This document shows positions 2,116 to 42,202 of a DNA stretch of 64,000 bases, one piece after another (positions within the stretch are counted from its first letter, which is position 1; every line of letters starts with the position of its first letter). Origin of the DNA: an uncultured Candidatus Saccharibacteria bacterium. GTDB taxonomy: Bacteria > Patescibacteriota > Andersenbacteria > UBA10190. The notes under the pieces were generated by a model. It was given only the letters and a program-made list of their open reading frames with translations, was not told the origin of the DNA and did no database searches. The position numbers were made by a program, and so were the translations under genes. The DNA is taken from positions 3,217 to 67,216 of the forward strand of contig CAYVFG010000003.1 of assembly GCA_964450915.1 (NCBI GenBank). Direction: 5' to 3'.

Positions 2116-2523
2116 ATGACTAATGAAACAACAACAGCAATTATTATTACTCTTATAGTAGGATTAGGAATCGGATACGCGGTGCGCGGTGCTCAACCTG
2201 CGCCACAAATTCCTGCAACTATGATGAATGGCGGCATGCACCAGATGCCGAATGGATCTATGATGGGAAATAGTAGTGATACAGATATGGACGACATGAT
2301 GAAGCAAATGTCTGCAGGGCTTGTGGGGAAAACAGGCGACGCATTTGATCAGGAATTCCTTACTGAGATGATTGTTCATCATCAAGGAGCTGTAGATATG
2401 GCACAGGCTGCTTTAAAAGATGTAAAGCATCAGGAGATTAAAGATTTAGCGAATGGCATTATTACGGCCCAAGAAAAAGAAATATCGATGATGAAGGGCT
2501 GGCAAGCGTCTTGGTATAAGTAG
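2116..2523 (+). CDS. DUF305-family protein with Met/His-rich segment (copper-tolerance associated)
   Basis: 135 aa. N-terminal TM helix, Met-rich stretch (MMNGGMHQMPNGSMMGNSSDTDMDDMMKQM), C-terminal HHQGAVDMAQ...EIKDLA motif typical of DUF305. Lies 55 bp downstream of the ATPase. Confidence 0.7.
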   Translation: MTNETTTAIIITLIVGLGIGYAVRGAQPAPQIPATMMNGGMHQMPNGSMMGNSSDTDMDDMMKQMSAGLVGKTGDAFDQEFLTEMIVHHQGAVDMAQAALKDVKHQEIKDLANGIITAQEKEISMMKGWQASWYK

Positions 2524-2777
2524 GAAGAGAAAGGTAGTACGGTTTTTTCTTGCTCGTATTACGCTAACGCCAAGTCCTCAATTCTCTTTGCAAACATCTT
2601 AATATCCGCAAAGAACTTCTCAAAATCCAGCTCTTTTGGTTTAACGATTTTTGAAGGATGTTCACTATTAATCCCCTATTGCAGGAATAAAGGGATTTGC
2701 AATAATTAGTCATTTACATAAATCTAGAAACAGGGACGAATCTGCACAATCAAACTGAATAGAAAAGGAGTCGAATC

Positions 2778-3764
2778 ATGAAGGGCTCAAGTTCTCCTAT
2801 TATTGCAAGAGGTGATTCAGGGGAGGTTGTTAGGACGTTAGTAACCTGTGGCCAGGTGTATGAGTTTGATCCTCAACGGGTACGTCCTTTTCCGGACCAA
2901 ATTCGAAAAAGATTTACTGGGATCAAGCGGCTAGCTCTTAGCATCCGTTTTGTGGGACAAACCAATCCGGGGAAGGTTCGCTTGGTGCATGACGATCCCC
3001 AATACGACGCAGAGCTCATTGATGGTGAGCGTCGCTTAAGAGCGGTTTTGCTCATTCCAGACAGGAGGTTTAAGGCATTTGTTGAGGATGGTATTGAGGA
3101 CGTTGCTACTCAATATGAGCATTGCGTAGCTTCCAATTTTGGAAGGCAAGACCATGATCCGCTGGAGATTACCGCATCGATCAGTCGTTTTCAGCAAGAT
3201 GGGAAGAAAAATGCCGAAATCGCTCAGATTTTTGGAAAGTCAGAGGGGTGGGTAAGTCAGTATTTAAGTTTGGCCAAACTTGCTCCCGAAGTTCAGGCGA
3301 TGCTGACTCCTCCTGATGAAGACGAAGATGAGCGAGGGGTTTCTGATGTCGACGCGAATGAAAAAAATCAACTTCAAATCTTCCGCCCCACTCTTCCGTT
3401 TTCAGTAGCACTGTTGTTGGTGCGGCTCGCTCACGATGTTCAGGTTGATGTTGCGAAGAAGATTATGAGCGATGGTATGTCGGCATCCGCTGCTCGACGA
3501 CTTGTTCTTAATCAGCTTCGCGAATCTCCTGGTGGGGACAAGAGACGTCTTCGGCCAACCGAGCAATGGCAGAGTCTGGAGCGTCTCGCGAGGCAGACAA
3601 AGGATCGTTTCGGGGTTTTTCTCGATCTGGGCAGTAAGGATTTTTTGCAGGTCGTGAAGGCTTCTGGAGCAGGAAATCGTGGTGCTCTAGAGGAAGGGTT
3701 GCGCGCCCTTGTTGCGGATCTTACTGAGCTTGCCGATAGTATAAGTAAGATTAAGGATGATTGA
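2778..3764 (+). CDS. orphan ParB/Srx-fold DNA-binding protein (ParB N-terminal domain + HTH)
   Basis: 328 aa. SD AAAGGAG 6 nt upstream of the ATG. ParB box motif LIDGERRLRAV, HTH NAEIAQIFGKSEGWVSQYLSLAKL. No adjacent ParA. Confidence 0.6.
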   Translation: MKGSSSPIIARGDSGEVVRTLVTCGQVYEFDPQRVRPFPDQIRKRFTGIKRLALSIRFVGQTNPGKVRLVHDDPQYDAELIDGERRLRAVLLIPDRRFKAFVEDGIEDVATQYEHCVASNFGRQDHDPLEITASISRFQQDGKKNAEIAQIFGKSEGWVSQYLSLAKLAPEVQAMLTPPDEDEDERGVSDVDANEKNQLQIFRPTLPFSVALLLVRLAHDVQVDVAKKIMSDGMSASAARRLVLNQLRESPGGDKRRLRPTEQWQSLERLARQTKDRFGVFLDLGSKDFLQVVKASGAGNRGALEEGLRALVADLTELADSISKIKDD

Positions 3765-3976
3765 GCTCAGAAGAATCTCGATCTTGTCAGTCACATTGGA
3801 ATTTTCCTCTGTGGCTGTTTTTTTATTCAAATATTAATTTTATTTACAGCATCTCTGTTCGTACCGTGTTTCAACGGCACCGAGTAGTGCCTACCTTTGA
3901 CAAGGTAATAGTATAAACGTACATTGATCGTAATGTATTCGTCCTTTCCAAATAACTTTTCTAACAAGAAAGATTC

Positions 3977-4258
3977 ATGATGGACATAACATTTCTACTC
4001 AGCATTCTGGTAAGCGTTTTTTCCCTTGCCTTGGTGTTGATCGGCATTCCTGCTCAAATCAAAAAGAATTACAAAGAAAAACGGTCGGGGCAGCCCATTG
4101 CAACAATCCTGATTGCTCTTTGCTTTTATGCTTCTTCTATCGGCTTCTTTATTCTTACAAAAGCATGGTTGCCGTTAGTATCATTCTGCATCGGTATTAT
4201 CATGTGGGGGATTACTTTGGTTCAGTATTTCATCTACGAAAAGGGGAAAAAAGTTTAA
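3977..4258 (+). CDS. SemiSWEET/PQ-loop-like small membrane protein
   Basis: 93 aa, three predicted TM helices, PQ motif in TM1 (GIPAQIKKNYKEKR). Size and topology fit bacterial SemiSWEETs. Confidence 0.5.
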   Translation: MMDITFLLSILVSVFSLALVLIGIPAQIKKNYKEKRSGQPIATILIALCFYASSIGFFILTKAWLPLVSFCIGIIMWGITLVQYFIYEKGKKV

Positions 4259-4430
4259 ATCCGATCTGGAAAAATGCTCCTGCTCGCGACATGAAGTTGC
4301 GAGTTCTTTTTTATCCAAAATCCGTCTCCGTATCTTCATGAAATGCTCATGCGCAGTTGTATTTTCGAAGGTATAGTGAACCTATACATACCGATTTGGT
4401 ATACACATTTTATTCTTAATAAATAATTCT

Positions 4431-5207
4431 ATGCATACATACGTAAAAAGTTTAGTCGTTGCATTGGCCTTGGCACTCGCGTTGCCAACAGGGGCTTTTG
4501 CGAGCGCGACCACGGGCACCTTTTCGGGGTTTGTGCCATCTATCGGAACGGATAGTTTTGTATTGCAAACCAAAAACCGTTATCAGCAGACTATTAATGT
4601 CTCGAGCGGCACGGTGATTACCATGCAAGGCAAAACAGAAACATTTTCGGATGTTATGGTTGGGGAGCAAGTGACTGTTAAGGGGGTGTGGGATAAGACA
4701 AACAAAAACGTAGCAGCCGAGACGGTTATTATTAAAGCGGCGAAAACAGGGTGGATTACGGGAACGATTACCGGGATAAATGGGACTACGATCAGCGTGC
4801 TTTCAAAAGGCGTTACGTATTCAGTTGATGCAAGTAATGCAAAAACCATTCGACGATTCAATGCTCCGATGAAGGTTTCTGATATGCAGATCGGAGACGT
4901 GTTGCAAGTGCGGGGAGTAATTCCTACGAGCACGAGCATTACGGCAACAACGATTCGAGATCTTTCTCTCCAGGCGCGCCATGGGCAGTTCGATGGAACT
5001 GTGCAATCGGTGAGCGGATCAAGCTTTGTGCTCCAAAGCAATCATCGAGGATCGCAGACTATCAATACGAACAGCTCGACAATCTACAAACACAAAGGAG
5101 CAATCGTTTCGTTCGCCAGTGTAACGGCTGGATCGAACGTGCGAGTATTCGGGGTGTGGAATAGCACAAATAGCAACGTAACTGCAAAGCTTGTCATTAT
5201 CAAGTAG
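4431..5207 (+). CDS. secreted protein with three tandem ~75-aa repeats (DUF5666-like)
   Basis: 258 aa. Signal peptide MHTYVKSLVVALALALALPTGAFA. Repeat units end ...VTVKGVWDKTNKNVAAETVIIKA / ...LQVRGVIPTSTSITATTIRDLS / ...VRVFGVWNSTNSNVTAKLVIIK. Confidence 0.6.
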   Translation: MHTYVKSLVVALALALALPTGAFASATTGTFSGFVPSIGTDSFVLQTKNRYQQTINVSSGTVITMQGKTETFSDVMVGEQVTVKGVWDKTNKNVAAETVIIKAAKTGWITGTITGINGTTISVLSKGVTYSVDASNAKTIRRFNAPMKVSDMQIGDVLQVRGVIPTSTSITATTIRDLSLQARHGQFDGTVQSVSGSSFVLQSNHRGSQTINTNSSTIYKHKGAIVSFASVTAGSNVRVFGVWNSTNSNVTAKLVIIK

Positions 5208-19391: not shown

Positions 19392-22307
19392 ATGATGCGC
19401 GAAGTACCATCGCATGTGGATAGTAATTCCCTTGAGCGGGATGTTTTGACGTATTGGGATGAAGAGCAGATTTTCAAGAAGTCATTGGATCAAAACAAAG
19501 ATAAAAAGCAGTTTACGTTTTATGATGGCCCGCCGTATGCAACGGGCAAGCCTCATTATGGGCATGTATTGCAGTCCGCAATTAAAGATACGGTATTAAG
19601 GTATAAGACAATGCACGGATACTACGCTCCTCGCAGAGTAGGGTGGGATACGCACGGATTGCCGATTGAAAATATTGTTGAAAAAGAATTGGAGATAAAA
19701 ACAAAAAAAGATATCGAAAAAGATATCGAGGGTTTTAATCAAAAGTGTAAAGAAACAGTATATCGATATGTAGATATATTTAGAGATACGCTCAAGCGAA
19801 TTGGGCGATGGGCAGATTATGGAAATGAATATTCTACGCTTGATCGTAATTACATGGAGTCGGAATGGTGGGTGTTTCAACAGATCTGGAATCAGGATTT
19901 AATATATAAATCATTCCGTTCAACGCCATATTGTATTCGTTGTGCAACTCCATTGTCGAACTTTGAGGTTGGTATGGCATATAAGGATACGCGAGATATG
20001 AGTGTGTATGTTGCCCTTCGACAGGCTCAGGGCAAATCAGAAGTGAAGCTTCTGATTTGGACTACAACTCCCTGGACGCTGCCTGCCAACGTCGCCGTTG
20101 CGTATAATCCCGAGATTTCTTATGTAGTCGCAAGAAAAGATGATAAAGAATATATTCTTGCAAAAGATCGCGTTGCGCATGTTCTTGGTGATGAGGCTCA
20201 AATTGTTCGTGATATCGCTGTAGATGAACTTGCGGCGTATACATACGAGCCGTTGTTTGCATCAAATACGAGCGATGAAGATAAAAGTAAATCTTTTCGA
20301 CTAGTCGCAAGCGATCATGTGTCTGCGCAGGATGGTACCGGCTTGGTGCATATGGCGCCTGCCTTCGGAGAAGAAGATTTTAATGTGGCAAAGAAGAATG
20401 ATTTGCCCATCGTTCGAAATATAGACATGCTAGGCAATTATAATGCGGATGTTCCGATGTGGGCGGGTAGGAATTTATTTGATGCTCAGAAAGATATCAT
20501 AAAAGAGTTAGATAAAAACGGCGCGCTATTTAAGCGCGAGCTTATTACGCATAGCTATCCATTCTGCTGGAGATGCGATACGCCGCTTATTTACATGGCG
20601 CTTGATTCTTGGTTTTTGAAAGTATCTCAGATTAAAGAAAAGATGCTGGAGAATAATCAGCAGATTACTTGGATCCCGGAGCACTTAAAAGAAGGGCGAT
20701 TTGCAAAAGGTATAGAATCTGCGCCTGATTGGGCAATTTCTCGTAATAGGTTCTGGAGTGTGCCGATGCCTATTTGGGAATGCTTAGAATGCGAGGATAG
20801 AGTTTGTATTGGTAGTGTTGCGGAATTGCAGGAAAAATCGGGAGCTACGGATGAGCAAGTTCAAGACATTCATCGCCCATACGTAGACGATATTACGTGG
20901 TCGTGCGAAAAATGTTCTGGCACGATGAAGCGTATTCCGGAAGTTCTCGACGTTTGGTTCGATTCCGGAAGTATGCCGTATGCCCAGTATCATTATCCGT
21001 TCGAGAATAAGGAAATGGTTGAGGCGGGGTATCCGGCAGATTTTATCGCGGAGAGCATTGAAATGACTCGCGCGTGGTTTTACGTGTTGCACGTACTTGC
21101 AACAGGGTTAACGCAAAAAAATATTGGACTTGGCACAGATAAGCCGGCGTTTGTAAATGCAATCGGTTCCGGAATTATTTTCGCAGAAGATGGGCGCAAG
21201 CTTTCGAAGAAATTAAAAAACTATCCGGAAATTGAACCGGTGCTCGAGCAGTATGGTGCTGATGTACTTCGATTTTATCTGTTATCCAGCAGCGCACTCG
21301 GCGAACCATATAAGTTTTCCGAGAAAGACATGCGCCAGGTGCAGCGCAACGTGTATCTTACGCTTTGGAATGTGTATAGCATGTTCACTCGGTATGCAAA
21401 GGTTCACGGATTCGTTGCTGGTGCAGACGATGCGAAGTCTGCAAACTCTCTTGATCAATGGATTCTTGCTCGTACGCATCAGCTTATTCAGCATGTTACT
21501 CAACATGCAAACGCATATCGAATCGACTATGCAGCTCGAGAATTTGTTACGTATATTGATGATTTGAGCAATTGGTATGTGAGGCGTTCGAGAACACGTT
21601 TGCAGCATCCGGAAAACGACCAAGAAAAACAAGAAGTATTCGGAACGCTTTACACTGTTCTTGTTCGAGTAAGCAAAGCGCTTGCGCCATTCATGCCGTT
21701 TGTTGCGGAGGAAATGTATCGAAACTTAACAGGGGAACAGTCGGTGCATTTGGTTTCGTGGCCATATAAAATTTCTGATATGCCAAAGCCGGGGGCAGAA
21801 GATTCTTATGACACGGCGATTCTTGATAGAACAAAGCATGTTCGAGAAACGATTTCCGAAGCTCTTGCTACTCGCGCCGTTGCGAAAATCAAAGTACGCC
21901 AACCGCTTGCGCTGCTTGAATTGCCTGCATCTGCAGAAGAATTTTTCCCGGAAGATTTGGAAATGATTAAAGAAGAGGTGAACGTAAAGGAAGTAAAGAT
22001 TTCCGCCATTGATGCAATGAAATTGGATACGGAAATTACGCCATCACTAAAACAGGAAGGCATTATTCGCGATCTGATCCGGTATGTTCAAGGATTGCGC
22101 AAGCAAGCAGGATATGCCCTTGATGATAAAATTACGGTTGGACTTAAAACGGATAACCAAGAAATTCTTGATGCTGTGTCGTCGTATAAAGAAATGCTCA
22201 CAACCGCTTTGCAGGCAACGGGTATTGTTGATGTGCTAGAAAACGCTGATGCAAGTGAGGAAGTGAACTTGAGCGGTGCAACTGCAATAATTTCGGTGAA
22301 GAAATAA
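19392..22307 (+). CDS. ileS: isoleucyl-tRNA synthetase, type 2 (eukaryote-like)
   Basis: FYDGPPYATGKPHYGHVL (HIGH), KLSKKLKN (KMSKS), CP1 editing insertion. Start taken at MMREV. Confidence 0.9.
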   Translation: MMREVPSHVDSNSLERDVLTYWDEEQIFKKSLDQNKDKKQFTFYDGPPYATGKPHYGHVLQSAIKDTVLRYKTMHGYYAPRRVGWDTHGLPIENIVEKELEIKTKKDIEKDIEGFNQKCKETVYRYVDIFRDTLKRIGRWADYGNEYSTLDRNYMESEWWVFQQIWNQDLIYKSFRSTPYCIRCATPLSNFEVGMAYKDTRDMSVYVALRQAQGKSEVKLLIWTTTPWTLPANVAVAYNPEISYVVARKDDKEYILAKDRVAHVLGDEAQIVRDIAVDELAAYTYEPLFASNTSDEDKSKSFRLVASDHVSAQDGTGLVHMAPAFGEEDFNVAKKNDLPIVRNIDMLGNYNADVPMWAGRNLFDAQKDIIKELDKNGALFKRELITHSYPFCWRCDTPLIYMALDSWFLKVSQIKEKMLENNQQITWIPEHLKEGRFAKGIESAPDWAISRNRFWSVPMPIWECLECEDRVCIGSVAELQEKSGATDEQVQDIHRPYVDDITWSCEKCSGTMKRIPEVLDVWFDSGSMPYAQYHYPFENKEMVEAGYPADFIAESIEMTRAWFYVLHVLATGLTQKNIGLGTDKPAFVNAIGSGIIFAEDGRKLSKKLKNYPEIEPVLEQYGADVLRFYLLSSSALGEPYKFSEKDMRQVQRNVYLTLWNVYSMFTRYAKVHGFVAGADDAKSANSLDQWILARTHQLIQHVTQHANAYRIDYAAREFVTYIDDLSNWYVRRSRTRLQHPENDQEKQEVFGTLYTVLVRVSKALAPFMPFVAEEMYRNLTGEQSVHLVSWPYKISDMPKPGAEDSYDTAILDRTKHVRETISEALATRAVAKIKVRQPLALLELPASAEEFFPEDLEMIKEEVNVKEVKISAIDAMKLDTEITPSLKQEGIIRDLIRYVQGLRKQAGYALDDKITVGLKTDNQEILDAVSSYKEMLTTALQATGIVDVLENADASEEVNLSGATAIISVKK

Positions 22308-22756
22308 AAAGAGCCCCGGTCGCACATTTCTTTTTCAAGATATGTGCGCCGAGGCGAAAAGGTCTTCATTGCATGTCACTAATAAATGATTGCGCGGTCC
22401 AGGCCTGTTTATATAGGCGTTCCTAACAGGGAGGTCAACTCGATGAGTGATTCCACTGAGGTTTCTGGAGAAGTTCAATCATTATTGCCGATCATGCGCC
22501 GAAGGGTTCTTGTCGTTGCGAGGGAGGTTGAGGGTCGCGCGTCATCGTCACGTAACCGTGGTGTCCGTGAAGAGTTATCGTGTTCCTCATAGGCTCTCCT
22601 TTCTATCGGTTGGTGAACCGTCGCAAGCCAGCTGGATCAAGAGGGATCCTCCTTGTGATGTTTTTCAACTAATCTGATCGCTGGAGCAATACAGGTTTCG
22701 TTAGCACAAACATCACTATGTAAATGTGCTAGTTACTACTATATTCTTCCCGTTAT

Positions 22757-22780
22757 TTTTGTCAAATTATTTTGACAAAA
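22757..22780. promoter_or_regulatory. 10-4-10 palindrome TTTTGTCAAA-ttat-TTTGACAAAA (operator-like; left half doubles as a -35 box)
   Basis: Perfect inverted repeat. The same palindrome recurs at 51521-51544. Confidence 0.5.
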
Positions 22781-22789
22781 ATAAAACAG

Positions 22790-23133
22790 CCTCCGGAAGT
22801 GTTGAAACACTTCACGGAGGACTGGGCGCAGGGCTCAAAGGGTGATCAGTCTCTCGTTGATCAAGCCTTCAAGCCGGGCGCAAACCCTTCCACAGCGTCA
22901 TCTTAGCGGGCCGCAGACTAAAAGTCATTGCCATAAGTGGTCGCTTTCCACGCATTCGCGATCGTGGAAGGGGTAGACACGCTGCTAATCGCAGCGTACC
23001 TAGGGGGGCTCAAGAGGATGCATCGGGGCTTCCTTTGGTGGTAGACGAATTCGGTCCGGCTTACTTCGACACGCAACCATTGCGCATCAGTCGCCGACGC
23101 CGATCAGGCCAGGGCTGCGGTCGGGGCTTTTTT
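22790..23133 (+). ncRNA. rnpB: candidate RNase P RNA (type A-like, reduced)
   Basis: No ORF. Promoter-like TTGTCA-17-TAAAAC upstream. P4-like complementary strands AAGCCGGGC (22880-22888) and CCGGCUUAC (23056-23064), the latter within ACGAAUUCGGUCCGGCUUAC, which resembles the conserved ACAGAAnCCGGCUUA. Multiple GC-rich hairpins. Ends in a GC hairpin plus T6 terminator (23094-23133). Confidence 0.35.
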
Positions 23134-23337
23134 CAAACAATAGAGGGGAGAAGCGCTGCAACTGAGCCGACTGGGATCCTTCATGATGCTCCTTTCGAGC
23201 CTTGGGTTGGTGTGCTGATGGGTTGCATCCGCACGAAGAACAAAACTGACTTTAGACATAGTAGCTTTATGTTCTATTTTTGTCAAATCTATTTATACTA
23301 AAATAATAAAAAATTGCTTAATTGAGCAAAAATAAAA

Positions 23338-23520
23338 CCCCTGCGGTTAATGTACTCGATTGAGTAGATTAAAAGAGGGGCGAATATGCCCGGAGCGACT
23401 AAGAGATTGCTCGCTTGGTCCCCCGGTACACGCTCTGCAAAAACGCGGGCCAACGCTGCAGAGCTAAGACTGATGGAAAGGTGCAACTAACTACCGCTAA
23501 CCTAGCAGAGAGTTGTTTTT
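23338..23520 (+). ncRNA. candidate structured sRNA (unknown family)
   Basis: Preceded by TTTTTGTCAAAT box and an A/T-rich promoter-like region. Hairpins CCCCU...AGGGG, GAGCG...CGCUC, GCUCUGCA...UGCAGAGC. Ends with a T7 run. No ORF. Confidence 0.25.
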
Positions 23521-23540
23521 TTGTCAATAGGGGTGGTATA

Positions 23541-24176
23541 ATGATTAGTATTATGCCTTCTTCTCGTACCGTTTCCGCGCTCGTATTTTCCCGAAAAAAC
23601 ATCGGGGAGGCGGACAGATTGATGACCTTTTTTACTCAAGAAGAAGGGCTTATAAAAGTTATTGCAAAGGGTGTGCGCAAAATTCCGTCTGCAAGGGGCG
23701 GGCACTTGGAGCCGTGTACGCAAGTGCTTGCAAATATTTCAGAAAGCAAAGCCGGATTATATATGGGGAACGTAGAGACTCAGGATTATTTCCATGCATT
23801 GCGAGGCGATGCTGATGCATTTGCGCGAGCGTGCAAACACATAACGGTGTTCCAGCGGTTATTTACAGAGCGCCAGGCGGTTCCGGAGTTATTCGATGCT
23901 TTAGTCGCTGGATGGCAATTATATCCATCGCTATCGCCAGAAAAAAGGATTGTGATGGATGCTGCAATTTCGTTGCAGATTATTCAGCATGCGGGAGTAA
24001 TGCCCGATATGCGATTATGGGCCGCTTCTTCCGCCAAAGATAAAACTCCTCTCGTTGTGAAATATTTGGCAGAACACCCTGATCATGCGCCGCGCATTGC
24101 GTTGTCTGAAAACGACGCTCGCGGAGTTGCTCGGGTAATGAACGACCTGCTCGCTCGAACAGTGGTATACTCATAG
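23541..24176 (+). CDS. recO: DNA repair protein RecO
   Basis: The N-terminus (ALVFSRKNIGEADRLMTFFTQEEGLIKVIAKGVRK) matches the RecO OB-fold. An extended -10 (TGGTATAAT) overlaps the ATG, so the transcript may be leaderless and the true start may be the second ATG at 23550. Confidence 0.8.
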   Translation: MISIMPSSRTVSALVFSRKNIGEADRLMTFFTQEEGLIKVIAKGVRKIPSARGGHLEPCTQVLANISESKAGLYMGNVETQDYFHALRGDADAFARACKHITVFQRLFTERQAVPELFDALVAGWQLYPSLSPEKRIVMDAAISLQIIQHAGVMPDMRLWAASSAKDKTPLVVKYLAEHPDHAPRIALSENDARGVARVMNDLLARTVVYS

Positions 24177-32979: not shown

Positions 32980-33768
32980 ATGTTTGACAGTCACGCGCAT
33001 ATAAACGACGCAGCATTCGACGAAGATCGAGATGCTCTGCTTACGAGCATGTTTGCATCCGGTGTTACTGGCTGGATTGAAGTTGGAACGAGTATTGAAG
33101 AAAGTAAAAAGGCCCTGTCGCTCGCGAGCGACAGGGCAGGCTCTGACCTGCAAATATTTGCATCCGTTGGCGTGCATCCGCATGAGTTACAACATATGCA
33201 AGATAGCGATTGGAGCAAGCTTTCCGAGCTTGCTGATAACTCGCTTTGCAAAGCTGTTGGCGAAGTGGGGTTGGATTTTTCCAGAGGAACTGATATCGAA
33301 TTTCAGGAAAAGATATTAAAAAGATTTATTGCGCTTGCTCAGCAAAAAAATCTCCCCATTATTTTCCATGTTCGAAGCGGAAATGATATAGATGCTCATG
33401 ATGAGCTTATTCGAATATTAAAAACATATACAAATAGCGATAGGCCCAAAGGCGTTATCCATACGTTTAGCGGGAATTTGCAACAGGCTCAAGAATATAT
33501 CTCACTTGGAATGTTGATTTCATTTTCCGGCGTTTTGACGTTTAAAAAGTCAGAAGGATTGCGAGGAATTGCCAAAACAATCCCGTTAGAATCTATTCTT
33601 ATTGAAACAGATTGCCCGTATTTAACCCCAGAACCGTTCCGAGGCAAGCGGAATGATCCATCGTATTGCAGGTTTGTCATACAAAGTATATCAGAATTAC
33701 GAGGTGTAGGATTTTCTGAGATAGAACAAAAAACGCACAACAACGCCAAGAAATTGTTTTCTATTTGA
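32980..33768 (+). CDS. TatD-family metal-dependent hydrolase/DNase
   Basis: MFDSHAHI N-terminal signature, VGEVGLDF, further H/E/D ligands. Confidence 0.85.
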   Translation: MFDSHAHINDAAFDEDRDALLTSMFASGVTGWIEVGTSIEESKKALSLASDRAGSDLQIFASVGVHPHELQHMQDSDWSKLSELADNSLCKAVGEVGLDFSRGTDIEFQEKILKRFIALAQQKNLPIIFHVRSGNDIDAHDELIRILKTYTNSDRPKGVIHTFSGNLQQAQEYISLGMLISFSGVLTFKKSEGLRGIAKTIPLESILIETDCPYLTPEPFRGKRNDPSYCRFVIQSISELRGVGFSEIEQKTHNNAKKLFSI

Positions 33769-33895
33769 CAATGACCAATAAAAGGCCTATAATTGTCACA
33801 GTTCGTTGACAGTTTGGTGTATATAAATTTGGGGTCTGCGAGGCAAGGTACCTCGTGTTTGATAGTTTCTTTAGTGTTTGATCATGGAGTTGATC

Positions 33896-34114
33896 ATGTC
33901 GAGTTCAATTGAAGGCGGTCCTCTTCTTCGTTTTTTGCAGGAGAATTCTGTTGCCGCTACGCCACCGCGGGATCTCTGGGAAGAATTGGAGGCTTCTGGT
34001 CGACGCAGGAAAATTCCGAGGGAGGCAAGAAAGATCGGCGGATCAGAAAAGCCGCTTTCTCTGGAAGATCTTGGCAGGCCTTTCGTTGATTCACACGCTT
34101 GTGTGATTCTCTGA
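33896..34114 (+). CDS. small hypothetical protein (72 aa)
   Basis: GGAG SD 5 nt upstream of the ATG. ORF ends ~36 nt before a very strong terminator. No homology recognised. Confidence 0.3.
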   Translation: MSSSIEGGPLLRFLQENSVAATPPRDLWEELEASGRRRKIPREARKIGGSEKPLSLEDLGRPFVDSHACVIL

Positions 34115-34149
34115 AAAGAAAGCATTTGTCCACGTACTACAACAGCAAG

Positions 34150-34188
34150 CCGTATTGAGTGATTTCACTTAGTACGGCGATTTTTTTT
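34150..34188 (+). terminator. strong rho-independent terminator
   Basis: CCGTATTGAGTGA-tt-TCACTTAGTACGG 13-bp hairpin followed by T8. Confidence 0.8.
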
Positions 34189-42112: not shown

Positions 42113-42119
42113 AGTGTTG

Positions 42120-42202
42120 TGCCGCGGGAGAGAATCGAACTCTCATGAAGTTGCCTTCGCAGGATTTTGAGTCCTGTGCGTCTACCGTTCCGCCACCACG
42201 GC
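42120..42202 (-). tRNA. tRNA-Leu (anticodon CAA), type II with long variable arm
   Basis: Minus-strand sequence GCCGUGG...CCGCGGC acceptor stem (7 bp incl. one G-U). Anticodon stem CAGGA/UCCUG with loop CUCAAAA. Variable arm GAAG-gcaa-CUUC. T-arm GAGAG-UUCGAUU-CUCUC. Discriminator A, CCA not encoded. Confidence 0.85.

What the first reader, a model, noticed from the sequence alone, without database searches (positions are those of the whole stretch)
22310..23540. 1.2-kb GC-rich island between ileS and recO with no long ORF, holding two or three tandem same-strand structured RNA candidates
In an otherwise tightly packed genome this is the longest stretch without a long ORF. It is markedly more GC-rich than flanking genes and is full of perfect hairpins, for example CCUCCGGAAGUG-uugaaa-CACUUCACGGAGG, CCACG...CGUGG and CGCUGC-uaauc-GCAGCG. 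It is partitioned by promoter-like boxes and terminators into sub-elements at 22380-22670, 22790-23133 and 23338-23520. The middle element carries P4-like complementary strands (AAGCCGGGC and CCGGCUUAC) and a 3' ACGAAUUCGGUCCGGCUUAC segment like the conserved ACAGAAnCCGGCUUA of bacterial RNase P RNA, so rnpB is my best guess. The other two elements match nothing I can name and could be unknown RNAs.
Basis: partly seen in the sequence, partly recalled or inferred. Interest (0 to 1): 0.7.

Follow-up and report, generated by a model that had tools for sequence, protein, structure and literature searches.

The report
Opposite-strand small-gene island, not RNase P
The gap between ileS and recO is not an RNase P gene; it is a clade-specific, variable island of three short self-contained genes that appear to be read from the opposite strand (two tiny-protein messages with heavily folded RNA, one small RNA candidate), and their function is unknown.

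Summary
The physical observation holds. The stretch 22308-23552 is the longest one in the window without a long ORF. It has GC-rich blocks (50-57% against 45%) separated by AT-rich spacers, and it folds far better than shuffled sequence.

The rnpB guess fails. No Rfam family matches, even at E<=10 on the middle element alone. That element is also absent or replaced by unrelated sequence in close relatives.

Promoter and terminator signals point to the minus strand. Three perfect TTGACA-N16/17-TAnnnT promoters are each matched by a hairpin plus U-tract terminator, and this pattern repeats in every related Candidatus Andersenbacteria locus.

- **Unit D/B (about 23251 to 22775)** has a strong Shine-Dalgarno (SD) site and a 26-codon ORF (MKDPS...). 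The ORF is kept in six lineages with synonymous codon changes, so it is translated.
- **Unit A (about 22731 to 22296)** has a 17-codon upstream ORF ending on the start codon (AUGA) of a 32-codon ORF. The SD and AUG of that ORF pair with a conserved segment inside it. Its consensus fold is conserved (structure conservation index about 0.7).
- **Unit C (about 23492 to 23327)** has no SD-led ORF and is a small-RNA candidate.

The modules come and go between relatives. Function is unknown, and the strand assignment rests on sequence signals only.

The parts
22296..22355 (-). Intrinsic terminator of unit A. The hairpin is 22311-22355. The U tract (CUCUUUUUAUUU) overlaps the last ileS codons.
   Evidence: dG is -29.7 on minus against -24.8 on plus, and a U tract follows only on minus. 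Two compensatory pairs, plus G-U pairs that work only on the minus strand, are seen across relatives. The site was found by the symmetric scan.
22296..22731 (-). Unit A transcript (about 430 nt, inferred). It comprises a 5' stem-loop, an upstream ORF, a small ORF, a folded 3' part and the terminator.
   Evidence: It is 91-94% identical in L168, L081 and L178, and recognisable in L082. Consensus fold: structure conservation index (SCI) 0.69-0.97, z -7 to -8 against column shuffles. 11 pairs carry double changes.
22738..22765 (-). Promoter of unit A: TTGACA, 16 nt, TATAGT.
   Evidence: The -35 box is perfect in all orthologous units (alignment).
22587..22654 (-). Upstream ORF of unit A. SD AAGGAGG (22648-22654), 7 nt, TTG at 22640, 17 codons. 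The stop TGA overlaps the next start codon (AUGA).
   Evidence: The 17-codon frame and the AUGA overlap are kept in window, L168, L081 and L178. In L178 the frame is restored by two single-base indels. The upstream ORF is absent in L082.
22492..22603 (-). Small ORF of unit A. SD GAAAGGAG at 22596-22603, ATG at 22590, 32 codons: MRNTITLHGHHGYVTMTRDPQPPSQRQEPFGA.
   Evidence: The ORF is kept through ...RDPQPP in 5 lineages. The N-terminal half changes mostly non-synonymously, and L081 has a stop at codon 24. Translation is therefore plausible, but the peptide sequence is weakly constrained.
22521..22536 (-). Segment GACCCUCAACCUCCCU (codons 18-23 of the small ORF). It pairs with the SD and AUG of the same ORF.
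   Evidence: Helices 7-8: 15 pairs, 11 invariant in 4 sequences. They were predicted by RNAalifold.
22775..22820 (-). Intrinsic terminator of unit D/B. Hairpin 22790-22820, followed by CUGUUUUAUUUUUG.
   Evidence: Equivalent hairpins with U tracts close the corresponding units in L082, L166, L170 and L178.
22821..23103 (-). Only the block 22826-22881 is shared with L166.
   Evidence: Folds have z -4.3 (plus) and -5.1 (minus). The sequence is unalignable with the tails of L082, L170 and L178. There is no Rfam match. The translated proxy is found only in the 99% strain.
23104..23196 (-). Small ORF of unit D/B. SD GAAAGGAG at 23189-23196, ATG at 23184, 26 codons: MKDPSRLSCSASPLYCLKKAPTAALA.
   Evidence: ORFs of 26-35 codons are present in five lineages, plus the conserved MKDPSR start at the cut end of the L174 contig; all begin MKDPS or MKSPP. 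L082 and L170 share K, D, P, S and VNSL through 8 synonymous codon differences, including Ser AGT against TCA.
23166..23214 (-). Most conserved core of unit D/B: CA-rich leader, SD, start codon and first five codons.
   Evidence: It is 94% identical to L082 over 49 nt while the flanks are unalignable. The motif GCTCGAAAGGAGC is present in six related loci representing four lineages other than the window's own.
23258..23286 (-). Promoter of unit D/B: TTGACA, 17 nt, TACTAT.
   Evidence: The promoter and the first 20 transcribed bases are conserved in 10 units from 9 loci.
23327..23381 (-). Intrinsic terminator of unit C. Hairpin 23339-23381, followed by UUUUAUUUUUG.
   Evidence: One pair covaries (UA to CG) in L081 and L178.
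23327..23492 (-). Unit C: about 165-nt small-RNA candidate with three hairpins and no SD-led ORF on the minus strand.
   Evidence: It is 85% identical in L081 and L178 and 98% in L168. The central hairpin is nearly invariant. SCI is 0.71-0.74 and z is -3.6 to -4.3 on either strand. The plus-strand 34-codon ORF is cut to 10 codons in L081.
23499..23527 (-). Promoter of unit C: TTGACA, 17 nt, TAGGTT. It sits back to back with the recO promoter.
   Evidence: The -35 box is perfect, and the -10 box is TAGGnT in L168, L081 and L178.
22619..22665 (+). Weaker plus-strand hairpin followed by UUUUU. It may end read-through from ileS. It overlaps the upstream-ORF start region of unit A.
   Evidence: dG is -16.3 on plus against -10.3 on minus. 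It is present in L081 and L178 and deleted in L082.
23538..23555 (+). recO -10 box (TATAAT, 23538-23543) and ATG (23553). The mRNA is leaderless or nearly so. This marks the right border of the island.
   Evidence: The same arrangement is seen upstream of recO in all relatives.

Best explanation
The gap holds three independent transcription units on the minus strand. They converge on ileS and diverge from recO. Each unit consists of a consensus sigma-70 promoter, a short RNA and an intrinsic terminator.

- **Unit D/B** is a small messenger. It has a roughly 60-nt CA-rich leader, a strong Shine-Dalgarno (SD) site and a 26-codon ORF that is translated into a small protein of an 'MKDPS' family. 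A roughly 300-nt GC-rich folded tail follows, and this tail is free to vary.
- **Unit A** is a roughly 430-nt folded RNA. A 17-codon upstream ORF with its own strong SD ends exactly on the start codon of a 32-codon ORF. The SD and AUG of that ORF are locked in a conserved helix with codons 18-23 of the same ORF. The inferred mechanism is translational coupling: ribosomes finishing the upstream ORF open the helix and reinitiate.
- **Unit C** is a roughly 165-nt non-coding RNA candidate.

The units behave as exchangeable accessory cassettes in a variable slot found in this Candidatus Andersenbacteria clade.

*Shown:* the sequence signals, conservation, the coding pattern of the D ORF and conserved pairing. 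*Inferred:* actual transcription, the strand, translation of the A ORFs, the coupling mechanism and any cellular role.
For: **Promoters**
- The window holds 12 perfect TTGACA-N16-18-TAnnnT sites in 64 kb, against 2.2 in shuffles. Outside the gap they mostly sit just upstream of gene starts (five of the nine, e.g. 11697, 29062, 61044). Three lie in the gap, all on the minus strand.
- In 13 related gaps every perfect TTGACA promoter is on the minus strand, with 1-4 per gap.

**Terminators**
- A strand-symmetric scan of 11 gaps found 24 minus-strand hairpin plus U-tract sites, typically -15 to -32 kcal/mol with a stereotyped UUUUAUUUUU tail. It found 12 weaker sites on plus.
- The number of minus terminators equals the number of minus promoters in most of the gaps scanned (8 of 10 with promoter counts, including the window at 3 and 3).
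- G-U pairs in the unit A terminator work only on the minus strand.

**Coding**
- The D ORF is present in 6 lineages. Conserved residues are encoded by different synonymous codons, including a Ser codon-family switch.
- SD sites are rare in this genome (about 3 of 51 gene starts). Three strong ones within 1.2 kb, each 4-8 nt before a start codon, is therefore not background.
- The plus-strand ORFs are broken in relatives.

**Unit A**
- The upstream-ORF length and the AUGA overlap are preserved through two compensating indels in L178.
- The SD/AUG helix is invariant in 4 sequences.
- The consensus fold has a structure conservation index (SCI) of about 0.7 and z of -8.

**Modularity**
- Window and L168 carry A+B+D+C. 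L081 carries A+C. L178 carries A, an unrelated tail, D and C. L082 carries a diverged A, an unrelated tail and D.
Against: - There are no expression data. The strand rests on sequence signals alone.
- Consensus folds of A and C are equally good on the plus strand. The plus-strand fold of A uses more G-U pairs and has slightly more covariation (15 against 11 double changes).
- Two plus-strand hairpin plus U-tract sites exist in the window, at 22619-22665 and 23089-23133. ileS has no plus-strand terminator of its own before them, so part of A may also be transcribed as an ileS 3'UTR.
- The A small ORF shows no protein-level constraint in its N-terminal half and has a premature stop in L081. Its conserved RDPQPP codons can be explained at the RNA level.
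- The peptides match no Pfam or NCBIfam model, and beyond the first five residues they align poorly.
- Only 4-6 informative sequences are available per family.
Confidence: 0.6

Rival explanations
1. Plus-strand structured non-coding RNAs. A would be an ileS 3'UTR or a 3'UTR-derived RNA ending at the 22665 U tract. B would be an RNA ending at the 23133 U tract, and C an RNA ending at the 23515-23523 T run.
For: - The plus-strand consensus fold of A is at least as good as the minus-strand fold (-94 against -78 kcal/mol; structure conservation index 0.71).
- It keeps several pairs in L082 only through G-U.
- Plus-strand hairpin plus U-tract sites lie at the right ends of A and B.
- Positive GC skew and T excess on plus in 22400-22700 fit a G+U-rich structured RNA.
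Against: - No acceptable plus-strand promoter exists for B or C. The best is TTGTCA-17-TAAAAC, which lacks the final T of the -10 box.
- The plus terminator after B is not conserved in L178, L082 or L166.
- The closing helix of the plus-strand A fold lies beyond its own putative terminator.
- The reading does not explain the perfect, conserved minus-strand promoters, the matched minus-strand terminators or the synonymous-codon pattern of the D ORF.
Confidence: 0.15
2. The units are type I toxin-antitoxin-like or other addiction or defence cassettes. This is a functional refinement of the best explanation, not an alternative to it: small toxic peptides encoded on highly folded mRNAs with sequestered ribosome-binding sites, present in variable tandem copy number in one intergenic slot.
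For: - The SD and AUG of unit A are sequestered in a long-range helix, with a coupled overlapping upstream ORF reminiscent of mok/hok.
- The RNAs are 400-470 nt long with strong promoters.
- The number of tandem units varies between close relatives, from 1 to 4.
- The slot also takes up other accessory genes, such as a DUF559 endonuclease-like gene in L175.
Against: - The peptides are hydrophilic or basic rather than transmembrane helices.
- No conserved antisense promoter was found on the plus strand.
- The only family libraries searched (Pfam, and NCBIfam) gave no match, and no toxin- or defence-specific library was searched.
- The peptide sequence is barely conserved.
Confidence: 0.1
3. The island is the decaying remnant of one or more ordinary protein genes. 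Promoter, ribosome-binding site and start codon would survive, and the rest would be frameshifted.
For: - Some relatives carry real minus-strand protein genes in the same slot (250-290 aa in L086 and L172, homologous to each other).
- Gap length varies from 466 to about 1750 nt.
- The GC content of the blocks resembles or exceeds that of coding sequence.
Against: - tblastn of those slot proteins against the window gap finds nothing.
- Pfam finds nothing in any frame's ORFs.
- A and C are conserved at 85-94%, with conserved pairing and compensatory changes.
- The small ORFs are kept at similar length in several lineages, which decay would not do.
Confidence: 0.05
4. The middle element is the RNase P RNA gene (rnpB).
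For: - The length is right (about 340 nt).
- It is GC-rich and well folded.
- A 7-bp complementarity (AAGCCGG with CCGGCUU) has a 3' strand resembling the conserved CCGGCUUA.
Against: - There is no RNase P hit on either strand, even at E<=10 on 381 nt.
- No GGAAAGUCC-type segment is present.
- The element is absent in L081 and replaced by unrelated sequence in L178, L082 and L166 at the same position.
- It is found only in a 99% identical strain by translated proxy.
- The MFE fold does not pair the proposed P4 strands.
Confidence: 0.01

Closest known systems
Bacterial RNase P RNA (Rfam RNaseP_bact_a / RNaseP_bact_b)
   Same: The size (about 340 nt), GC-richness and dense helices of the middle element are similar. 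It also has a short complementarity whose 3' strand reads CCGGCUUA.
   Different: There is no covariance-model match at any threshold. The conserved GGAAAGUCC region is missing. The element is not conserved even among relatives with 86% RecO identity. The transcription signals point to the other strand.
Type I toxin mRNAs with coupled overlapping reading frames and sequestered ribosome-binding sites (hok/mok/sok of plasmid R1; aapA1/isoA1 of Helicobacter). Comparison from general knowledge.
   Same: These are also roughly 400-nt highly folded RNAs from strong promoters, with a tiny ORF whose SD is buried in a long-range helix. In unit A an upstream ORF ends on the main ORF's start codon. Copy number in tandem varies between strains.
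   Different: The peptides here are not hydrophobic. No antisense RNA promoter was detected. No toxicity is known. There is no sequence relationship.
Dual-function small RNAs (e.g. SgrS/SgrT, RNAIII/delta-haemolysin, SR1/SR1P). Comparison from general knowledge.
   Same: These are short stand-alone transcripts with their own promoter and intrinsic terminator. They combine a translated small ORF with long structured non-coding parts.
   Different: No target pairing region has been identified here. No Hfq or ProQ context is known in this phylum. The non-coding tail of D/B is not conserved, whereas regulatory parts of dual-function RNAs usually are.
Proline-rich ribosome-arrest or leader peptides (EF-P-dependent PPX motifs, RAPP-type arrest peptides). 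Comparison from general knowledge.
   Same: The short ORFs carry conserved Pro-rich motifs: MKSPP and MKDPS at the N terminus, and RDPQPP followed by W, S or stop in unit A. The motif in A coincides with the segment that pairs with the SD.
   Different: No downstream gene exists to be regulated before the terminator. Stalling is untested. The conservation can be explained at the RNA level.

Membership tests
RNase P RNA (bacterial type A/B) | Significant match to the family covariance model (sequence plus structure) | tested here: not met
   No hit at gathering score on the whole window. None at E<=10 on 22200-23650. None at E<=10 on 22770-23150 alone, either strand. None in 10 related loci.
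RNase P RNA (bacterial type A/B) | Universally conserved P4 strands with flanking GGAAAGUCC and ACAGAAnCCGGCUUA segments | tested here: not met
   Only AAGCCGG and CCGGCUU are present. There is no GGAAAGUCC, and the MFE fold does not pair the two strands.
RNase P RNA (bacterial type A/B) | Conservation as an essential gene among close relatives | tested here: not met
   The element is absent from the syntenic gap of L081. It is replaced by unrelated sequence in L178, L082 and L166. The translated proxy is found only in the 99% strain. Whether relatives carry rnpB elsewhere could not be checked.
tmRNA, SRP RNA, 6S RNA and other Rfam families | Match to a family model or detection by ARAGORN | tested here: not met
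   ARAGORN finds only tRNA-Leu in the window. Rfam gives only noise hits.
Sigma-70 promoter plus intrinsic terminator transcription unit | -35 TTGACA and -10 TAnnnT at 16-18 nt spacing, conserved in orthologous positions | tested here: met
   Three sites in the gap, all on minus. The boxes are perfect in all related units.
Sigma-70 promoter plus intrinsic terminator transcription unit | GC-rich hairpin immediately followed by a U tract on the transcribed strand | tested here: met
   Three such sites on minus in the window (-17 to -30 kcal/mol). Across 11 gaps there are 24 on minus and 12 weaker ones on plus. Compensatory changes occur in the stems.
Sigma-70 promoter plus intrinsic terminator transcription unit | Transcript actually made, with the predicted ends | not testable with these tools
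   No RNA-seq or end-mapping data are available.
Protein-coding small ORF (unit D/B) | Reading frame kept in diverged relatives with an excess of synonymous change at conserved residues | tested here: met
   Five lineages carry complete 26-35 codon ORFs, plus the ORF start (MKDPSR) at the cut end of L174. In L082 against L170, 8 conserved residues are all encoded by different codons. Pro is CCC, CCG or CCA, and Ser is AGT, TCT or TCA.
Protein-coding small ORF (unit A) | Reading frame kept with protein-level constraint | tested here: inconclusive
   The frame is kept through RDPQPP in 5 lineages, and the upstream-ORF coupling is kept in 4. Changes are mostly non-synonymous, L081 has a stop at codon 24, and the conserved codons double as a pairing strand.
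Type I toxin-antitoxin system | Small hydrophobic (membrane) toxin peptide | tested here: not met
   The peptides are polar or basic, e.g. MKDPSRLSCSASPLYCLKKAPTAALA and MRNTITLHGHHGYVTMTRDPQPP....
Type I toxin-antitoxin system | Antisense RNA gene overlapping the toxin mRNA | tested here: inconclusive
   No conserved plus-strand promoter was found. Read-through from ileS could supply antisense RNA to unit A.
Leader-peptide attenuator | A regulated gene downstream of the leader ORF and its alternative structures | tested here: not met
   Each unit ends in a terminator and is followed by the next unit's promoter or by the ileS stop codon. There is no downstream ORF.

The most novel reading that the evidence does not exclude
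In a genome that initiates translation almost entirely without Shine-Dalgarno (SD) sequences, this clade keeps a dedicated and fast-turning-over slot of SD-led micro-ORF RNAs. Proline-rich nascent peptides (MKDPS or MKSPP, and ...RDPQPP followed by W or stop) and self-sequestering ribosome-binding sites would make these RNAs sensors or modulators of ribosome state, for example EF-P or anti-SD availability. Alternatively they could be selfish, toxin-like addiction cassettes. To my knowledge (no dedicated literature search was made for this point), either would be the first regulatory small-RNA and small-protein island described for Patescibacteria (CPR).
Probability: 0.15. Interest if true: 0.65.

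Novelty: new member of a known kind. Interest (0 to 1): 0.4.

Why it matters
- **Annotation.** The case removes a tempting mis-annotation (rnpB). It shows how a GC-rich, hairpin-dense gap can be read on the wrong strand.
- **Biology.** Patescibacteria (CPR) have almost no described regulatory RNAs or small proteins. This locus offers three concrete candidates that can be tested by metatranscriptomics, with defined promoters, ends and one small ORF under protein-level selection.
- **Translation initiation.** The host appears to use leaderless, SD-independent initiation for nearly all other genes. That contrast makes the SD-led micro-ORFs a handle on how such organisms use the anti-SD at all.
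- **Limits.** The elements are restricted to one clade, vary between close relatives and have no known function, so the immediate impact is modest.

Tried and rejected
- **Rfam and ARAGORN.** Rfam was run at gathering score and at E<=10 on the window, the gap, the middle element and 10 related loci. Only noise came back (STnc420, Ysr206, a snoRNA). ARAGORN found no tmRNA.
- **Protein families.** Pfam on every ORF of 44-88 aa in the gap, and NCBIfam on eight small-ORF peptides, found nothing.
- **Collection scans.** The ileS scan of the species-representative genome collection returned only relatives at 44% identity or less, so it was useless for synteny. The metagenome scan with a RecO alignment gave only two close loci. 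A viral-contig scan for the unit D core gave 0 matches.
- **Other copies.** blastn of the gap against the rest of the window and all loci found no dispersed copies.
- **Pseudogene idea.** tblastn of the proteins that occupy the slot in relatives found no remnants in the window.
- **Plus-strand ORFs.** The 49/68-aa ORF in A, the 34-aa ORF in C and the 146-codon open frame over B/D were rejected as coding. They are frameshifted or truncated in L178, L081 and L082, or found only in the 99% strain.
- **Strand from structure.** Consensus-fold energy, structure conservation index and G-U counts on both strands were inconclusive.
- **Literature.** Searches on CPR non-coding RNA, Andersenbacteria and leaderless translation in Patescibacteria found nothing relevant.
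- **Source record.** A look-up of the window's own record through P0038 found nothing on record.
Full report
**What is at the coordinates**

ileS (Pfam tRNA-synt_1, Anticodon_1) ends at 22307. recO (RecO_N) starts at the ATG at 23553. The 1245 nt between them is the longest stretch of the window without an ORF of 120 aa or more.

GC-rich blocks sit at 22400-22700 (50.5%), 22790-23250 (56.6%) and 23339-23500 (52.5%). The window is 45.0% GC and ileS 43.3%. The blocks are separated by spacers of 20-30% GC.

The quoted hairpins are present; the first has a one-base bulge. Each block folds much better than dinucleotide shuffles, with z from -4 to -5.6. This is true for both strands, so folding energy alone says nothing about which strand is read.

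**RNase P and other known RNAs**

Rfam 15 gives no family at gathering score anywhere in the window except one tRNA. Only noise appears at E<=10 in 22200-23650, or in the middle element alone, where the filters are most permissive. ARAGORN finds no tmRNA. Ten related loci have no Rfam hit either.

The 'P4-like' strands are a genuine 7-nt complementarity. However, the GGAAAGUCC-type conserved segment is absent, and the strands do not pair in the MFE fold. The rnpB reading is therefore rejected.

**Whose genome, and the relatives**

RecO homologues place the window in Candidatus Andersenbacteria (Patescibacteria/CPR). They form a graded series of relatives at 99, 86, 79, 76, 69-64, 61 and 57% RecO identity. 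Their contigs were fetched.

The order argS, glycosyltransferase, ileS, gap, recO is kept wherever the contig reaches that far upstream. The gap itself ranges from 466 to about 1750 nt. In more distant relatives (RecO 45%) it is about 85 nt.

The window's gap is a mosaic of four modules:
- A: 22308-22770
- B: 22771-23136
- D: 23137-23300
- C: 23301-23552

The relatives combine these modules differently:

| Locus | RecO identity | Modules in the gap |
|---|---|---|
| L168 | 99% | A, B, D, C (all four) |
| L081 | 86% | A and C, joined exactly at the spacer |
| L178 | 86% | A (91%), an unrelated GC-rich sequence in place of B, the D core, C (85%) |
| L082 | 76% | a diverged A, another unrelated tail, the D core |
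| L166 | 79% | a D unit whose tail shares only 37-56 nt with B |

A translated proxy of B finds only the 99% strain among 5.8 billion proteins. So B, the rnpB candidate, is the least conserved part of the island.

**Which strand**

The window contains 12 perfect TTGACA-N16-18-TAnnnT sites, against 2.2 in shuffles. Outside the gap they mostly lie just upstream of gene starts (five of the nine), so this is the organism's normal strong promoter. Three are in the gap, at 22765, 23286 and 23527, all on the minus strand. In 13 related gaps every perfect TTGACA promoter is also on the minus strand, with one to four per gap. The -35 box and part of the spacer are conserved in alignments.

The three hairpins at the left end of each block are followed by U tracts only on the minus strand: CUCUUUUUAUUU, CUGUUUUAUUUUUG and UUUUAUUUUUG.

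A strand-symmetric scan of 11 gaps found 24 minus-strand terminator-like sites, mostly -15 to -32 kcal/mol with this stereotyped tail. It found 12 weaker ones on plus. The number of minus terminators equals the number of minus promoters in most of the gaps scanned, 8 of 10, including the window.

The unit A terminator stem has two compensatory pairs, plus G-U pairs that exist only in the minus-strand RNA.

Against this, plus-strand hairpin plus U-tract sites exist at 22619-22665 and 23089-23133. The first could end read-through from ileS, which has no plus-strand terminator of its own. The second is not conserved in L178, L082 or L166.

Consensus folding does not settle the strand. For A the structure conservation index (SCI) is 0.71 on plus and 0.69 on minus, and for C it is 0.74 and 0.71. 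All are clearly better than column-shuffled alignments. The plus-strand fold of A uses more G-U pairs.

My reading is that the transcription units are on the minus strand. I cannot exclude that part of A is also transcribed as an ileS 3'UTR.

**Unit D/B (about 23251 to 22775, minus)**

After the promoter come a short 5' hairpin and a CA-rich leader. Then follow GAAAGGAG, four bases, and an ATG at 23184 opening a 26-codon ORF.

The 49 nt around the start are 94% identical to L082, although everything downstream is unalignable.

Complete ORFs of 26-35 codons beginning MKDPS or MKSPP occur in the window (and L168), L082, L166, L170 and L178; in L174 only the ORF start (MKDPSR) is present at the cut end of the contig. 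L082 and L170 share K, D, P, S and, at the same distance, V, N, S, L. All eight residues are encoded by different codons. Pro appears as CCC, CCG or CCA, and Ser as AGT, TCT or TCA. That pattern is what selection on a protein produces, not selection on an RNA. I therefore regard this small ORF as translated.

It is GC-rich and folded but free to vary between lineages.

**Unit A (about 22731 to 22296, minus)**

It starts with a conserved stem-loop. Then comes AAGGAGG, seven bases, and TTG at 22640, opening a 17-codon upstream ORF. Its stop overlaps the ATG at 22590 (AUGA) of a 32-codon ORF that has its own GAAAGGAG.

The 17-codon frame and the AUGA overlap are kept in window, L168, L081 and L178. 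In L178 this happens through two compensating single-base indels.

The SD and AUG of the 32-codon ORF pair with GACCCUCAACCUCCCU, which is codons 18-23 (RDPQPP) of the same ORF. Of the 15 pairs, 11 are invariant in four sequences.

The 3' half contains helices with compensatory changes and a variable loop length in L082.

The peptide itself is poorly constrained. Most changes are non-synonymous, and L081 has a stop right after PP. The act of translation, or the RNA structure, seems to matter more than the product.

The plus-strand 49-codon ORF with a GGGAGG box is frameshifted in L178 and absent in L082, so it is not a gene.

**Unit C (about 23492 to 23327, minus)**

Unit C has three hairpins and no SD-led ORF. 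It is 85% identical in L081 and L178, with a nearly invariant central hairpin. The plus-strand 34-codon ORF is cut to 10 codons in L081. Too few sequences are available for meaningful covariation. C is a small-RNA candidate of unknown role.

**Context that makes the ribosome-binding sites notable**

Of 51 gene starts inspected, only about three have an SD. Most have a -10 box ending 7-12 nt before the ATG, which means leaderless or near-leaderless mRNAs. This includes recO and its orthologues in every relative. Three strong SDs, each correctly spaced from a start codon, within 1.2 kb are therefore not background.

**Mechanism and comparison**

The best-supported picture is an accessory, fast-evolving island of three self-contained minus-strand genes: one small-protein mRNA with a variable folded tail, one folded RNA with a translationally coupled pair of micro-ORFs and a self-sequestered ribosome-binding site, and one small RNA.

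In architecture the units resemble dual-function small RNAs and, for A, type I toxin mRNAs of the hok/mok kind. Membership in the type I class fails on the hydrophilic peptides and on the lack of a detectable antisense promoter. Leader-peptide attenuation fails because nothing lies downstream to be regulated. Decay of a larger gene is unlikely: no remnants were found, and structure and ORF length are conserved.

The recurrent proline motifs (MKSPP, RDPQPP followed by W or stop) are unexplained. They could reflect anti-SD pairing at the RNA level or ribosome stalling at the peptide level.

**Verdict**

- The rnpB interpretation is wrong.
- The strand is most likely the opposite one.
- At least one element is coding.

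The elements belong to no described family but to known kinds of genes. They are confined to one CPR clade and vary among close relatives. Interest is moderate. The main value is a set of precisely delimited candidates for strand-specific transcript mapping in a phylum where regulatory RNAs and small proteins are essentially uncharted.

Noticed in passing
window-wide gene starts, e.g. 9983, 17035, 23553, 24180, 30892, 38676, 56987, 58173, 59750: The genome looks poor in Shine-Dalgarno (SD) sites and largely leaderless. Most starts have a TATAAT or TATACT-like box ending 7-12 nt before the ATG and no GGAG. Only about 3 of 51 starts (2778, 15660, 41589) have an SD. recO orthologues in all relatives show the same layout.
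   Followed up: partly
ileS-recO gap in L086 (about 2300-3190, minus), L172 2600-3385 (minus), L175/L176 3528-3905 (minus), L083 3973-4461 (plus): The same slot carries other cargo in relatives. L086 and L172 hold a 250-290 aa minus-strand protein of unknown function (about 28-30% identical to each other over the 154-214 aligned residues). L175/L176 hold a DUF559/MTES_1575 endonuclease-like gene. L083 holds a 162-aa ORF. The gap behaves as a hot spot for accessory DNA.
   Followed up: partly
window 22753-22784: A perfect 14-nt palindrome (TTATTTTTGTCAAA / TTTGACAAAAATAA) fuses the U tract of the D/B terminator with the -35 box of unit A. The same junction joins A directly to C in L081.
   Followed up: partly
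window 3764-4431: The second-largest gap holds a TTGACA-17-TACATT promoter at 3897 and an unlisted 93-codon hydrophobic ORF (3977-4258), probably a small membrane protein.
   Followed up: no
window 33765-34159: A perfect TTGACA-17-TATAAT promoter on the plus strand is followed by about 390 nt before the next long ORF (GTG at 34159). This could be a long leader or another small gene. Rfam finds nothing there at gathering score.
   Followed up: no
L177 2475-4000: The most distant syntenic relative (RecO 57%) has a 1526-nt gap with four minus-strand promoter-terminator units. Two of them have small ORFs starting MNSPP or MKSPP, and one ends in ...VPPP-stop.
   Followed up: partly
window 42119-42202 (minus): The only tRNA in 64 kb is tRNA-Leu(CAA), with a long variable arm.
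   Followed up: no
window 2740-2790: One of the few SD-led genes, a ParB-like protein at 2778, has a start region (AAAAGGAGUCGAAUCAUGAAGGGC) resembling that of the unit D small ORF (GAAAGGAGCAUCAUGAAGGAUCC).
   Followed up: no
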